Assembly (NCBI RefSeq): GCF_032062105.1
Contig: NW_026937104.1
Coordinates: 124,001 to 188,000 of the forward strand
Source of the DNA: Saccostrea cucullata
Taxonomy: Eukaryota
Direction: 5' to 3'
Length of the DNA stretch: 64,000 nt
Made by a program: the position numbers. Positions 15,001 through 21,000 of this stretch are shown piece after piece (within the stretch, counting starts at the first letter, position 1; each line of letters opens with the position of its first letter).

Positions 15001-18000
15001 AAATACGTATTTAAACCACATTGATGTGTCGTCTTTTGCAATTTAAACACTGTATATTGCAGAAAGTAGCTGATGAATGTACTAGGTTTCTAAGGCCAAG
15101 CAGGGCTGTTTCCCAAACCTCCCTCCGCCATATTTAAACTCCGTGATCTTGGTAATAAGTGGTAAAATTGGAAACTGATTTTGTTATCGTATATTCAAAA
15201 AGATTAATCTTTTAAGCTACAAACAAGAAAAGGCTAATTTTAATGCAGCGAAAGCTCAAATTGTCTGCACTCTATTCACAGGTAAACAAACAAATTTACA
15301 CTCTGGTGTTAAATGGAACAGCGTTAAAGCAGCATGGTGACCTAATTCGATTCTCTATAGAGAAACGATCAGTCGTATTTTAGGGCTGCTAACTACATGT
15401 AGCAGAATAGAAATAAAGTCCGTGTTTTCGTGAATGATGCAGAATAACCTCCTCAGTCTCGAAATGTTGTTTGAAATATATCTTTCAAACAACATTTCTC
15501 GACCTCGGAGGTTATTCTGCAACATTCACGAAAACGCAGACTTTATTTCTTAAATAAACGCCCTTGTACAGAGTTAGTGACTGCAGTATACCTACCAGAA
15601 CTCCATCCTTGTAATGAAACTCATAAAACTTAGACACCTACTAGGTTAAGCATAGAATCTGCCTCTTTGTAATATAACTCATAAAACTTATAAACAACAC
15701 TCACCAGACTAAGCATGGAAGCTGCCTCCTTGGAAAGCCATCTTGGGTAGTGTGGAGTGTCGTTCATAATGGAATGGAACAAATCATCTTCATCATCTCC
15801 GTGGAATGGAGACTGACCAATCATCATCTCGTACAATAACACTCCAAACGACCACCAATCTACAGACTGGTTGTATTTCCAGCCTTTTAGAATCTACATA
15901 AAGAATTCACACAGCTTTAAACAAGTCAACACACAAAGTATCTGCATATTATTTTTTTTTCCTTTTCCTTTTGTAACTGATAATTTCCAAAAATTTAATC
16001 CAGTATAGAAATTCATGCAGACTTGTACAAGTAGAATATTTGAGAGACCACAATTAATGAATTTTTTTCCAAAAATATATTTTTCTTGTGAGTCATAATA
16101 AAATGATGCTACATGATATCATTCAATAAAGAATAAGTTTATCTATGCCAGGTCAGGTTTTTGATAAGGGGTTTCTGAGAGAAGGTCTGAGAGAGGTATT
16201 CTCCCCCCCTCACCTAGATTTTTTTTTGGTTGGTTTATGTATATGTGCATTCTTTACAATATATGCATGAATAAAGAATTTCATTTCAAAAAGAGGGTGC
16301 AATCTCATCCAATGCAACTTCTGTCCTGAGTGCCATGTTATCAAACATGATCAAATAAAATCCAATCTTCCTAAAGAAAAAATTTCAAATAAAAGTTTTC
16401 TTTAAAAAATCATAAAAATGGACATTTTTAAATCCTCTCTGTTGGAAATTTTTTTTACAAAGATCCAGCTCCAAATCTTCCTCATTACTTAAAGGACATC
16501 TTTTCAAAATGGAAAACTTTAGCTGAAAACATGCATTACATTGGGGGTTGTGTTTTAAAATGACATTGATTTGACGTTTCGTTGCGTCTGTGTAAGTTAC
16601 CTCGGGAGCTATGTAGTCCGGAGTACCACAGAATGTCGTAGCTTTCCTCTCGTCAAACACGTTCAATTTACACATTCCAAAGTCTGCTATCTTTATGTGC
16701 CCCTCCCGATCCAACAAAACATTATCTAACTTGAGATCTCTACAAAAGAAAAATGCTCTGTTATAGAATTTACAGCTCTTCACATAGAACTACAGGCATA
16801 TCAAATGATCCTGATATATAACACTTAAAATATATAGCATATCTGAATTATTGCTCATTACAAATCTCACTTCTACATGTAATAGAAAATGTTTCTTACA
16901 CATCCACTTATTTACTTCTTATTATGTGGGAAATATATTAATAAAACAAACAGCAAGGCCACTAAGCTGCCATAATGCAGCCCTTTCCACTTCTTGAAAT
17001 GATGAAAACATTACATAAAAGATTAGAGGAGTACATTGTTTCAGAGATTGAGTTCTGTGCATTTATTATGTTTACTGAATTTAAGGCCTCTTGTGAAAAA
17101 GGTAATACAATAAAACAAACAGCAAGGTATCTGGACACACGTCTATGCAGTTATCTTATTCAAAAGAAAATTTAGTAAGTTTTGTTTTTTGCACAAACTG
17201 TTACCATACCTATAAACAATCCCTCTGGTATGTAAATACTGTAATCCTAACAAAATTTCTGCACCATAGAATCTGAAAAAAGCATAAAGTTAACACTAGT
17301 GACAAAAATATAAAGTAAATGATGAAACTTGTATAAGTATATAGTGTCAGATGAAAGCTATTTTATATTTGTTCTGAAAAGATGTGCAAATATTCTTTCA
17401 TCATGTTCATAACAAATAAAGATACCATGAAGTTTTTTCTTGGTATGATATAATTTTCTTTACAATTTTTTTTCTATCAGAAAATCAATGAGGAGATCCT
17501 TTCAGCTTCTGAGCTCAGGTTAAAATAATTCCCATTAAGAAAATATATAACTTGTTATTTACCTGGGAACATATCAAACTTTCTAGAGAGCTTTATATGA
17601 CTTTGTGAGCCCAGGGCAATCAAACTTTCCAAAGAGCTGTACATATATTATTTACAGATCTGGGTACATTTCTTTCCAGAGAACATGCGTAACTCACAGA
17701 ATTTGAATTGGGGCATAACACATTTCCCAAAGAGCTGTTTATAACTTACTGAGCTCGGGGCATGTCAAATTTCCCTGACAGCTGTATATGGAACATCAAA
17801 TCCCCTCCATTTAAATACTCCATGACAAAGAAAAGATGGCTCTGAAAAAATAATTACACACTGGGTACTTTTTGTTCACTTACATATTCTATTGGGAGAA
17901 AAAATACATTACAGGTGATAATTTTGTGCATATCCATAAGTTAATTTATGAAACTCCATTTCAAAAAACAAAGCTGACATCCAAGTCAATGATATTATTT

Positions 18001-21000
18001 TCTTGACTATTCTTGAAAGAAACTTTTAATAGTATTTTCTGGTGTATCTTCTCTGGCCTTTCTGGGTAATACCTGTGTTATTTTTAATACTTGTCTGGTG
18101 TTTACTAATATCTTGTACTGTGTGGTGCAAGTATTGGTGAGATATGTAAGCATGATGATATCCCATAATACCCATTGTTATTCTATCACTGTATGTTCAA
18201 GTAGTACTTACTAGTGTATATACCAAGTAGAACTTACTGGTGTGGTGAAAGTACTATGTAGACGAGTTAAGTAGACGTGCTGACAGCCCAGGGCCAGTAC
18301 TTGTTTCTCTTCCTTTCATGTGCTATATCTAGTACTAACTAGTGTACATTAGTAGTACTTACTGGTGTGGTGAAAGTACTATGTAGATGAGTTAAGTAGG
18401 CGTGCTGACAGCCCAGGGCTAACACTTGTTTCTCAATCATTGTACACTCGACGTCGTCATCCTCTAGAACCACATCTTTCTTCAGGACCTTGACGGCGTA
18501 ATATTTCCCTCGACCTTTCAGCTCGGCTAACATAACCTTTAAAGACATGAAGCATGAATATATATAAAATATATATATGTTAATATATTTAAAATGCAGG
18601 ATAAATGAGTAGTAATGTATACATGCCATTTGTATCAAATAAATAAATTTACATTTCTCTTTTTACTTGAATTCTAAGAATTGAAGAAAATATCTTACTT
18701 GAAAGATCAGGCTTAAAGAAATTCAGAGTCATACAAATGAAAATATATTGCATATATACTCGCTGAAAAGGAATGCATTTTAAATTCACCTTTCCAAAGC
18801 TTCCTTTGCCTAAAACTTTTAGGAAAACAAAATCGTTGGGGGTGAATTTTCGTCTAGGAGCAGCCGGTGGTTTACTGCCAGGGGGCTCCAGCGGGGGGCC
18901 ATTTTTATCCCAGATTTGTTCGTATCCCTGAGCTTCATCATCTGAGCTGCTCTCCTCTTGGTTCTAAAAATAAATTCAAACAAATCTCTGAAACTCAAAT
19001 GTAACCATAACTATTCAACTCTCTGCTTTATAAATGTCTACTTCAAACAATAAAACCTATGTGTATCTCTGATATCTAATATCCAACATTCTCTTGATAT
19101 TAGTCCAAAATATCTGACGTTTTCCAGGCTTTGTTATGATTTTAATATTTTATGTTCAAGGAAAACATCAAAACCAGCCTCATTACGAAAACTGGAAATT
19201 TTGCCGTCTCCAAACGGAGTTGATTTTCAATACTTGCAAACCAAACTAAATGCCGAAATCAGAATTGATCATTAGCACAATGATTCTAGTACACAGCATT
19301 ATTGATGAAAAGAAAATATCACTCCATATTTATATATCTTCAGGACGTGCAAGATTTTGAAATACAAAAAATGAGGACAAATCTTGACAGTCTGATAAAA
19401 TGTTTTCATCAGATTGTTTATTTTATAAATTAACCCTAAAAACGATATTGGTTAAGTACTGAAAGTATTGTACTATTGATAACTTGTGAGTACGACATTT
19501 ACTTCAGTTTGCAAGTATCTAGAATCAACCCGAGAATGCCGCCTCCGATTTCAGTTTTTATAATGGCACCAGTTCTGACATTTTCCTGGCCCCTAAAATA
19601 TCAAAATGTTAATTAAGCCTGGAAAACGTCAGATATTTCTGACTATTTGATACAGAAACTAGATTCTTTCATATTGAATTCTTGTAATCAAACTTGCATG
19701 AGTGGAGCCCATCAATACTTTTTGTAATGAATAATTAATGCAGCTGTGCCACAAAATGTGATCATAACCTCCTGTATATATTAACGTTCAGTAATTGCTT
19801 CATAAAAAGCCTTTTGATCGCTGATTGAGAAGAGGGAAAAAAAAAGAGAGAAAGATGCTGCTTATTAACAAATGTGGAATATACCTATTCTTTATTAACC
19901 TTCATTTGATCACAGTTGGTAGATCTAATTCATACAAATTAGTTGGAGCCTTCTCAGCTAAATTTAGCTGAAAAGCTAAATTTCTTAATCTCTATAAAAA
20001 TCTTCCAAATCACAGTTTTAGGTAGCTATATTTTAGTTGAGAGATGAAATATAGATTTTTTTCACAAGAATTAAAGGATGAAAAAGCATTTCACTTTATA
20101 AGACATTTTCTTAAAACCCTTTTGAAAGCCCCCCACCCACAAATTTTTCTTATCATAAACTCTGTAAGTAAAAATGCTTATAACCAACACAATTAGAATG
20201 AATTGACACTTACAGCAATGTGATTTTCATTCCCCAGGAATTTATATTATATTGAGAACTTAATGGAAATAACGAATTACGTTTATATAGAAGCAAAATC
20301 ATCAGTCTTGCGTACTTCGTTATAGGCATGTTTTACTATATTTAGTATTCTTGGTAAATGTGTCAATTATGCATAAGGTTATTGATGCATTCAATCATCT
20401 ATCATAAATTTATACAAAAATCTCACTTTACTAATGTGATAGTAGCATGCTATTTCATCATCTTTATCAACTACAACTGAATAACATTTCACACAGTCAG
20501 TCCATTAGAAAACCAATAGTAGACCTAGTATGAAGCTGACAATTTTTGAATGAAGAATTGTATTCATCAAAAGAAAATACAGTCTTATGTGACTTCAGAG
20601 TTTTAAGTCTAGAGAAATCATTCATACCTTCTTATTAAAAAAAATGCTTAAATTTGCTTTGGAAAAACTCTTCCTATACAGAAAACTAACATTTACATTG
20701 GCTATGAAATCAACTAGAACTGTCCAAACGGGACAAAATACCCCCCGCTGCGTTTTTCAGAAGTAAGTTTTTCAATAATTAAGATATGTATCAGACACGA
20801 ATTATGAAATTTTTTCTTCCAGTGACCTTGAACTTCCCAAAATGACCTTGGGTCAAGGTCTTGACACACCCTTGGGTCATGGGCAATTTTTGAGTGAAAT
20901 GAGAACCTACCAAGTTTATCCATAAGAAAGATATGGACCGGACACGAATTATGAAATTTTTCTTCCAGTGACCTTGAACTTCCCAAAATGACCTTGGGTC

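What the first reader, a model, noticed from the sequence alone, without database searches (positions are those of the whole stretch)
15590..18440. Recurrent pattern: three kinase exons have their 3' end and donor echoed in tandem into the next intron
Seen: independent decaying arrays seeded by the exon/intron boundary at 15590-15735 (~50-63 bp, 3 copies), 17555-17790 (~47 bp, ~5 copies) and 18114-18440 (~125 bp, 3 copies). All extend into the intron on the donor side, and similarity broadly falls with distance. Minisatellites also begin just downstream of the donors at 23999 and 26561. Inference: a polarised duplication process at 5' splice sites (for example transcription or R-loop-linked slippage), or selection tolerating only donor-side copies. 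Either would be a route to intron growth and new splice sites.
Basis: partly seen in the sequence, partly recalled or inferred. Interest (0 to 1): 0.68.

Follow-up and report, generated by a model that had tools for sequence, protein, structure and literature searches.

The report
Exon-end echoes in oyster kinase introns
In an oyster protein kinase C gene, three introns begin with decayed tandem copies of the end of the preceding exon and its splice donor; this kind of junction-spanning repeat is already known from amphioxus ("mirages") and from several human genes, so it is a real but fairly ordinary feature.

Summary
The window carries a 17-exon novel-type PKC (delta-like) gene on the minus strand. 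Its exons are 100% identical to Saccostrea cucullata isoforms X1 and X2.

An echo test on all 32 splice junctions found three clear positives: the donors of exons E10, E11 and E14 (z = 29, 6.4, 6.8). The other 13 donors and all 16 acceptors were negative. The copies make up 41-55% of two introns and carry four strong decoy donors.

- Donor versus acceptor (3/16 vs 0/16) is not significant (Fisher P = 0.23).
- Against the intronic array-edge rate (4.2%), the donor excess is nominal (P = 0.027). It disappears (P = 0.15) once the frozen exon copy is allowed for.
- An echo lying in the downstream intron is a geometric necessity in a working gene, not a sign of polarity.
- States shared by intronic copies show that arrays 1 and 2 grew partly by copying intronic units, not by repeated seeding at the donor.
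- Similarity does not fall with distance in array 2.

These are decayed "mirage"-type repeats that span an exon-intron junction. They are probably tolerated because the first donor is the one used. This is a new member of a known kind.

The parts
13648..39796 (-). Coding part of a novel-type protein kinase C (delta-like) gene: 17 coding exons and 16 GT-AG introns
   Evidence: tblastn of oyster, pearl-oyster and scallop PKC delta proteins onto the window. Splice sites read. Pfam run exon by exon: PKC_C2 (E2), C1_1 (E7), Pkinase (E13, E14).
18363..18536 (-). Exon E10 (kinase N-lobe); authentic donor CCA|GTAAGT, GT at 18362-18361
   Evidence: 59/59 identical to the S. cucullata protein; boundaries.
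18310..18434 (-). Array 3, unit c0: last 72 nt of E10 plus the first 53 nt of the intron
18178..18309 (-). Array 3, copy c1. The exon-like part is 67/72 identical to c0. It keeps an intact decoy donor CCA|GTAAGT (GT at 18237) and has a second donor-like site, CTA|GTAAGT, at 18211.
   Evidence: (96/108 = 89% in local alignment).
18070..18177 (-). Array 3, older copy c2 (66% to c0); GT kept but the donor has degenerated to CA|GTACAA
   Evidence: (71/101).
18026..18045 (-). Possible further fragment of the array 3 unit (17/20 identity to the donor region)
   Evidence: Short, so it could be chance.
17750..17841 (-). Exon E11; authentic donor TCA|GTAAGT
   Evidence: 31/31.
17544..17784 (-). Array 2: unit c0 (35 nt of exon plus 12 nt of intron, 17784-17738) and copies c1 17737-17682, c2 17681-17640, c3 17639-17592 and c4 17591-17544. 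c4 carries a strong decoy donor, CAG|GTAAAT (GT at 17562).
   Evidence: (family D2).
17506..17519 (-). Possible sixth fragment of array 2 (13/15 identity to the donor region)
   Evidence: Short, so it could be chance.
15705..15893 (-). Exon E14 (kinase C-lobe); authentic donor CTG|GTGAGT
   Evidence: Pkinase.
15575..15737 (-). Array 1: unit c0 (33 nt of exon plus 30 nt of intron, 15737-15675), c1 15674-15617 (decoy CTA|GTAGGT, GT at 15641; its use would add 63 nt in frame) and c2 15616-15575 (decoy CTG|GTAGGT, GT at 15595)
   Evidence: (family D5).
26561..26593 (-). Cassette micro-exon E3b (33 nt). Its donor is the '26561' of the finding.
   Evidence: It accounts for the 11-aa difference between isoforms X1 and X2.
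26441..26531 (-). 28-nt x 3.2 tandem repeat starting 29 nt below the E3b donor; not derived from the exon
   Evidence: echo score 12.
22451..23875 (-). 21-nt minisatellite filling 1425 of the 1656 nt of intron E6-E7; not derived from the end of exon E6
   Evidence: echo score 15; flanks examined.

Best explanation
These are decayed 'mirage'-type repeats that span an exon-intron junction.

Proposed history. At each of three donors, a short segment was duplicated in tandem at least once. The segments were 47-125 nt long and held the last 33-72 nt of the exon, the 5' splice site and the first 12-53 nt of the intron. The cause was ordinary slippage or unequal exchange. The gene kept working because the spliceosome went on using the first (authentic) donor, so the extra copies became intron. 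They then decayed neutrally, while the exon copy was held fixed by protein-level selection. Arrays 1 and 2 also grew by re-copying units that were already intronic.

No donor-specific mutational process is needed. This genome is rich in local tandem duplications, and copies anchored on an exon stay recognisable for longer.

Shown: the arrays, their exon origin, their share of the introns, the decoy donors, and the states shared among intronic copies. Inferred: the duplication mechanism, neutrality, and first-donor use as the reason for tolerance.
For: - Three junction echoes are far above the shuffle and cross-junction controls.
- The exon copies are conserved coding sequence, identical to the S. 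cucullata protein. The annotated isoforms join [25 protein letters not shown] and PRAQ|FY, which are the authentic first donors.
- Local duplications are common here. 15.9% (downstream) and 16.5% (upstream) of 504 intronic 90-nt probes in this gene have an echo scoring at least 33 within 450 nt. There are about 11 separate duplication clusters in the gene.
- Using a decoy donor after E10 or E11 meets a stop codon within 8 codons or 1 codon, so such transcripts would be non-productive.
- Intronic copies share states that are absent from the constrained exon copy.
- In array 3, c0 and c1 are 93% identical in the exon part and 69% in the intron part, as expected if only the exon copy is constrained.
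- The same architecture is described in amphioxus Adh3, TnC, globin and PGBD5 genes without disturbed splicing (PMC3087553 section 16; PMC3902484 passage).
Against: - Against the rate at which random intronic probes sit at the upstream edge of an array (21/504 = 4.2%), 3 of 16 donors is nominally high (P = 0.027). All three hits are donors.
- A fourth local duplication also starts at donors: the start of intron E5-E6 is copied at the start of intron E6-E7.
- GT is kept at the donor-homologous position in 6 of 8 intronic copies, or 7 of 8 if a 4-nt shift is allowed in array 2 copy c4. About 4.0 are expected from unit identity (P = 0.14 and 0.03).
- All the human examples listed in PMC1557585 are donor-side.
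- No RNA-seq was examined. First-donor use rests on the annotated proteins alone.
Confidence: 0.7

Rival explanations
1. There is a real donor-versus-acceptor asymmetry, and selection causes it. Junction-spanning duplications arise at both ends of introns. Donor-side copies are harmless because the first 5' splice site is chosen. Acceptor-side copies place an extra 3' splice site upstream of the true one, are mis-spliced more often, and are purged.
For: 3/16 donors against 0/16 acceptors. [quoted passage not shown] Using decoys after E10 or E11 would give premature stops, so only first-donor use is viable.
Against: The asymmetry is not significant here (Fisher P = 0.23; 0 of 16 acceptors has P = 0.46 at the 4.8% edge rate). 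Acceptor-side mirages exist and are spliced normally in amphioxus BflGb6 (PMC3087553, section 16). Repeats overlap both 5' and 3' sites in amphioxus PGBD5 (PMC3902484).
Confidence: 0.3
2. A mutational hotspot exists at 5' splice sites. Transcription-, R-loop- or spliceosome-linked slippage repeatedly duplicates the exon-donor junction, always seeding new copies at the boundary.
For: There are three arrays within 3 kb of one gene, all at donors. The excess over the intronic edge rate is nominal (P = 0.027). In array 3 the younger copy lies next to the exon and the older copy lies further away.
Against: Shared derived states among intronic copies in arrays 1 and 2 mean that at least some steps copied intronic units rather than the junction. 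Array 2 shows no decay with distance. With a doubled edge rate, to allow for the frozen exon copy, P rises to 0.15. The window was selected because of the pattern.
Confidence: 0.08
3. The echo arrays are kept because they do something. They could act as clusters of U1-binding decoy donors that tune use of the upstream donor, or as alternative 5' splice sites. The array 1 decoy at 15641 would add 21 residues in frame.
For: Strong donor-like sites are about 12-fold denser in the arrays than in other introns of the gene (Poisson P = 3e-4). GT is kept in 6-7 of 8 copies against 4.0 expected. The 63-nt stretch up to the array 1 decoy is open and in frame.
Against: Donor enrichment follows directly from the copies' origin. 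The copies are 55-83% identical with indels, which is the look of neutral decay. No listed isoform carries the insertion (15 of 61 cluster members listed). In a protein search aimed at the insertion, the 3 hits among 6 candidates covered only the exon half of the query, 50-55%. That search has low power.
Confidence: 0.05
4. The similarities are chance matches or an assembly artefact.
For: Arrays 1 and 2 have short units and are too diverged for TRF. Array 2 is missed by blastn at E < 0.01.
Against: z = 6.4-29 and none of 300 shuffles reached the observed score. There is no comparable score against unrelated introns. The spacing is periodic with several copies in register. The copies differ by 11-45%, unlike assembly duplications.
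Confidence: 0.02

Closest known systems
Amphioxus 'mirages': minisatellite-like tandem duplications of exon-intron boundaries in Adh3, TnC, globin (BflGb6, BflGb9) and PGBD5 genes. I read section 16 and passages of PMC3087553 and passages of PMC3902484. The original Adh3 paper (Canestro et al. 2002) is not held.
   Same: Tandem units whose first member spans an exon-intron boundary. Splice signals are reiterated in the copies. Unit sizes overlap (10-160 bp there, 42-132 nt here). Several occur in one gene. Regular splicing appears undisturbed. They have been proposed as raw material for intron change.
   Different: The globin mirages are 81-100% identical and vary in length between haplotypes. 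Here the copies are 55-89% identical with indels, so they are old and decayed, closer to the 'imperfect' PGBD5 repeats. Amphioxus has both acceptor-side and donor-side cases, whereas here all three are donor-side. The host here is a bivalve mollusc, and my library searches found no mollusc report. Polymorphism could not be tested.
Human minisatellites whose first unit spans a splice donor: the F7 intron 7 37-bp VNTR, with interferon-inducible 6-16, CBS, LMNB2 and PDGF cited alongside it. I read the abstract, Introduction and Discussion of PMC1557585.
   Same: The authentic donor is followed by reiterated pseudo-donors in the intron, and only or mainly the most upstream site is used. This supplies a tested reason why such arrays are tolerated.
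   Different: In F7 the units are identical and hold only 4 nt of exon. Here the units hold 33-72 nt of exon and have diverged, and splicing was not measured.
Intron gain or sliding by tandem duplication of a segment holding a proto-splice site (Rogers model; Drosophila cases). I read the abstract of PMC2891723. For PMC3265369 and PMC4974935 I saw only the search listing.
   Same: A tandem duplication inside a gene duplicates splice signals, and one copy of exon sequence becomes intron.
   Different: No new intron is created here. An existing intron is lengthened from its 5' end, and the exon boundary stays where it was according to the annotated proteins.

Membership tests
Junction-spanning minisatellite ('mirage' type) | Head-to-tail tandem units | tested here: met
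   Unit spacings are 125/132 nt, 42-56 nt and 58-63 nt. The copies are in register.
Junction-spanning minisatellite ('mirage' type) | The first unit contains exon sequence, the splice site and the adjoining intron | tested here: met
   The units hold 72+53, 35+12 and 33+30 nt of exon+intron. Exon boundaries come from protein mapping and GT-AG sites.
Junction-spanning minisatellite ('mirage' type) | The splice signal is reiterated in the copies | tested here: met
   GT sits at the homologous position in 6 of 8 intronic copies, or 7 of 8 with a 4-nt shift. Four decoys have at least 7/9 U1 matches.
Junction-spanning minisatellite ('mirage' type) | Regular splicing is not disturbed (the authentic site is used) | tested here: inconclusive
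   The annotated S. cucullata isoforms X1 and X2 use the authentic junctions. A protein search found no isoform with the in-frame insertion. No RNA-seq was available.
Junction-spanning minisatellite ('mirage' type) | High unit identity and length instability, as in a true minisatellite or VNTR | tested here: not met
   Identity to the exon copy is 55-83% (89% in local alignment for the best copy), with indels. Polymorphism cannot be tested from one sequence. These are best described as decayed relics of such arrays.
Intron gain by tandem duplication (Rogers model) | A new intron whose two ends derive from the two copies of a duplicated exon segment | tested here: not met
   The introns have ordinary acceptors unrelated to the exon ends (all 16 acceptor echo scores are within the null). 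The exon junctions equal those of the annotated proteins. The age of the intron positions in other phyla was not tested.
Novel-type protein kinase C (delta-like), the host gene | N-terminal C2-like domain, two C1 domains and an AGC kinase domain, in that order | tested here: met
   Pfam run exon by exon gives PKC_C2, C1_1 and Pkinase. The exons are colinear with full-length oyster PKC delta proteins.

The most novel reading that the evidence does not exclude
In oysters, tandem duplication across 5' splice sites is systematically favoured over the acceptor side. This could arise by mutation or because the first-donor rule makes such copies harmless. If so, it would be a major and datable route by which short introns grow from their 5' ends, leaving trains of live decoy donors, some of which become in-frame alternative donors (such as the 21-residue option after exon E14). 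The three arrays here, plus the copy of intron 5's start at the start of intron 6, would be the local footprint of that process.
Probability: 0.15. Interest if true: 0.6.

Novelty: new member of a known kind. Interest (0 to 1): 0.3.

Why it matters
It extends the junction-spanning 'mirage' repeat from amphioxus and a handful of human genes to a bivalve mollusc. It also shows the later life of such repeats: they decay into ordinary-looking intron while making up about half of two short introns. That is direct sequence evidence for intron growth by local duplication of the exon-donor junction. It also shows that strong decoy donors, one of them identical to the authentic 9-mer, can sit 125 nt downstream of a used donor.

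Whether donors are truly preferred over acceptors is a clean question that one annotated oyster genome could settle. This single window cannot answer it.

Tried and rejected
- TRF at minimum score 30 reported only array 3 among the three arrays. blastn of every exon +/-30 nt against the whole window (E < 0.01) found arrays 1 and 3, the intron 5/6 match and one marginal hit (E15 acceptor region against 42376-42346, E = 0.01), but not array 2.
- The coverage-based null (about 16% of intronic probes have an echo) makes 3/32 junctions look unremarkable. It is too lenient, because a junction can only sit at the edge of an array, so I replaced it with the edge-rate null.
- I looked for a copy of exon E6 behind the intron 5 copy in intron 6. 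None was found; the best scores were 15-16.
- The Rfam gathering scan and the tRNA scan of the whole window gave 0 hits each, so the units are not known RNA elements.
- A protein search aimed at the would-be 21-residue insertion gave 3 hits among 6 candidates, all covering only the exon half of the query. This is weak, because only 90%-cluster representatives are scored.
- Literature: searches for mollusc or oyster reports of such repeats found none. A paper on tandem repeats and splicing in humans (PMC10078293, passages) held nothing on junction-spanning repeats. The original Adh3 'mirage' paper is not held.
Orthologous introns, polymorphism and genome-wide rates therefore stayed unchecked.
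- I considered coding constraint on array 3 copy c1 and rejected it. It has 5 differences in 72 nt, 2 of them amino-acid changing, and no plausible acceptor upstream.
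Full report
**What the region is.** The window is AT-rich (GC 0.28-0.42) and rich in tandem repeats (111 TRF rows). A search with one exon found oyster PKC delta proteins. Mapping full-length bivalve proteins back onto the window and reading the splice sites gave a 17-exon gene on the minus strand, from 39796 to 13648. All 16 introns are GT-AG and the exons sum to 2073 nt. Every exon is identical to the Saccostrea cucullata 'protein kinase C delta type-like' isoforms X1 (691 aa) and X2 (680 aa), so the window comes from that oyster or a near-identical one. 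Nothing in it looks human. Pfam, run exon by exon, gives PKC_C2 (E2), C1_1 (E7) and Pkinase (E13, E14). All searches were exon by exon or on contiguous window stretches, and the joined step was left out.

**Checking the observation.** For all 16 donors and 16 acceptors, I aligned the last or first 80 nt of the exon plus 10 nt of intron against the adjoining 450 nt of intron. I compared each score with 300 dinucleotide shuffles and with the other junctions' introns.
- Exactly three junctions stand out: E10 donor (score 134, z 29), E11 donor (33, z 6.4) and E14 donor (33, z 6.8). Each exceeded every shuffle.
- The remaining 13 donors and all 16 acceptors are within the null. The best of them is the E3 acceptor at P = 0.02, which is expected among 32 tests.
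  - Array 3 has units of 125, 132 and 108 nt (18434-18070) plus a possible 20-nt fragment.
  - Array 2 has five units of 42-56 nt (17784-17544) plus a possible fragment.
  - Array 1 has units of 63, 58 and 42 nt (15737-15575).

The exon copies are conserved coding sequence, so the direction of copying is from exon to intron.

**Anatomy.**
- Each unit holds exon end, donor and intron start: 72+53, 35+12 and 33+30 nt.
- The copies make up 240-284 of 521 nt of intron E10-E11, 194-232 of 477 nt of intron E11-E12, and 100 of 1012 nt of intron E14-E15.
- GT is kept at the donor-homologous position in 6 of 8 intronic copies, or 7 of 8 if a 4-nt shift is allowed. About 4.0 are expected from overall unit identity (P = 0.14 and 0.03).
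- Four decoys match U1 at 7/9 or more positions. One (GT at 18237) has the same 9-mer as the authentic E10 donor. Another (17562, 8/9) is stronger than the authentic E11 donor (6/9).
- Such sites are about 12 times denser in the arrays than in the other 23 kb of this gene's introns.
- Using a decoy after E10 or E11 would run into a stop codon within 8 codons or 1 codon. Using the first decoy after E14 would add 63 nt in frame with no stop.
- The annotated isoforms use the authentic donors. A protein search aimed at the 21-residue insertion found only matches to the exon half of the query (low power).

**Does similarity fall with distance, and are copies seeded at the boundary?**
- In arrays 1 and 3 the nearer copy is the better one (78% against 55%, and 83% against 66%).
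- In array 2, identity to the exon copy is 68, 68, 78 and 66% for copies 1-4, so there is no gradient.
- Intronic copies share states that the constrained exon copy lacks.
  - In array 2, c2 and c4 are 73% identical and share 7 such states. c1 and c3 share CAGCTCTTTGG where the exon has CAGCTGTCAGG, including a change at the second position of a conserved Ser codon.
  - In array 1, c1 and c2 share GTAGGT (the exon copy has GTGAGT) and TTACAA (the exon has TTTCCAA).
- So after a first junction-spanning event, these arrays grew by copying intronic units. That is ordinary minisatellite turnover, not repeated seeding at the donor.
- Array 3 fits two copies taken from the exon unit at different times. 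With only two events this carries little weight.

**Is there a polarity?** A tandem duplication across a donor necessarily puts the second copy in the downstream intron if the gene still works. So the only real asymmetry is donors against acceptors.
- 3/16 against 0/16 gives Fisher P = 0.23 two-sided.
- Local duplications are common in this gene. 15.9% (downstream) and 16.5% (upstream) of 504 intronic 90-nt probes have an echo scoring at least 33 on a given side. These fall into about 11 clusters.
- A junction can only sit at the edge of an array, so the fair null is the edge rate: 21/504 (4.2%) for the upstream edge and 24/504 (4.8%) for the downstream edge.
- Against that null, 3 of 16 donors has P = 0.027, 0 of 16 acceptors has P = 0.46, and 3 of 32 junctions has P = 0.17.
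- Exon-anchored copies have one partner frozen by selection and so stay detectable for roughly twice as long. With a doubled rate the donor P becomes 0.15.
- The window was also chosen because of the pattern, and the edge rate rests on only about eight arrays.

This window therefore neither shows nor excludes a donor preference.

**The two extra minisatellites.** The exon with its donor at 26561 is real: a 33-nt cassette exon that explains isoform X1 against X2.
- The 28-nt array (26441-26531) starts 29 nt below that donor. A 22-nt repeat (26621-26669) lies 28 nt above the same exon's acceptor.
- The 21-nt minisatellite (22451-23875) fills 86% of intron E6-E7. It lies 123 nt from the donor and 109 nt from the acceptor.
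- Neither array shares sequence with its exon end (scores 12 and 15).
- The stretch between the E6 donor and the 21-nt array is a copy of the start of the previous intron. 24318-24213 matches 23994-23874 (90/126, score 64, against shuffles of 17 +/- 3). 24167-24124 matches 23781-23734 (41/48). No copy of exon E6 was found.
- This is a fourth local duplication that starts at donors. I did not resolve how it arose.

**Comparison with what is known.** The architecture has a name.
- 'Mirages' are minisatellite-like tandem duplications of exon-intron boundaries in amphioxus Adh3, TnC, globin and PGBD5 genes. They occur at both 5' and 3' boundaries and do not disturb splicing. They have been proposed as a source of intron change (PMC3087553 section 16; PMC3902484 passage).
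- Human genes also have minisatellites whose first unit spans a donor: F7, 6-16, CBS, LMNB2 and PDGF. [quoted passage not shown]
- That gives a tested reason why donor-side copies are tolerated.
- The oyster arrays differ in being old and decayed (55-89% identity, with indels) and in carrying long exon pieces.
- My library searches found no report from molluscs.

**Verdict.** These are relics of junction-spanning tandem duplications, a new member of a known kind. The idea that they lengthen introns and add splice-site-like sequences is supported by the sequence. A donor-specific duplication process is not supported. A selective donor bias remains possible but is untested here.

Noticed in passing
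window 26561-26593 (minus strand): A 33-nt cassette micro-exon (E3b) encoding VAPGPSLKSK plus split codons. It accounts for the 11-residue difference between the annotated isoforms X1 (691 aa) and X2 (680 aa).
   Followed up: yes
window 24213-24318 vs 23874-23994, and 24124-24167 vs 23734-23781 (minus strand): The tail of exon E5 plus the first ~190 nt of intron E5-E6 is copied at the start of intron E6-E7, at an offset of about 325 nt (90/126 and 41/48 identical). No copy of exon E6 follows it. The origin is unresolved: either a tandem segmental duplication that later lost the exon copy, or a template switch.
   Followed up: partly
window 22451-23875: A 21-nt minisatellite (about 68 units) fills 1425 of the 1656 nt of intron E6-E7. 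Part of its unit (TTCAGTGTAGTA on the minus strand) already occurs in the intron-5-like flank, so it seems to have expanded from inside that copy. The long ORFs across it (up to 275 aa) are repeat artefacts.
   Followed up: partly
window 20765-21614 and 51287-52046: Two arrays of the same 146-nt repeat family, in the same orientation. One lies in intron E8-E9 and one lies outside the gene. Each is followed by an ACAG-type microsatellite (21664-21718; 52059-52078). This looks like a transposon-borne satellite. A resemblance to bivalve 'pearl'/BIV160-type repeats is recalled from memory and was not tested.
   Followed up: no
window 60535-61352 and 62908-63531: Two arrays of an 84-nt repeat (9.8 and 7.4 copies) whose consensus units are reverse complements of each other. 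They flank about 1.55 kb as an inverted pair (the orientation was read by eye from the consensus units).
   Followed up: no
window 7374-8706 (minus) and 8861-10051 (plus): Two diverged copies of a retroelement-like ORF lie head to head. The longer one has a weak RVT_1 match (E = 9e-4, below the Pfam cut-off). (AT)n runs of 78-84 nt sit at 6797-6880, 8714-8791 and 10446-10523. A C-terminal motif resembling GIY-YIG, which would suggest a Penelope-like element, is recalled from memory and was not tested.
   Followed up: partly
window 16940-16958 and 17109-17127: An exact 19-nt direct repeat, 169 nt apart, inside intron E12-E13. No flanking similarity was found. It does not involve the exon.
   Followed up: partly
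window 25511-25625 vs 25814-25905, and 27861-27899 vs 27986-28028: Further diverged local duplications lie deep inside introns (88/115 and 35/43 identical). They show that local duplication is common here away from splice junctions too.
   Followed up: no
window 117-215: A 51-nt x 1.9 tandem repeat lies inside open frames that run off the start of the window. On the minus strand the translation is rich in R, P, D and E. It may be the edge of another gene.
   Followed up: no
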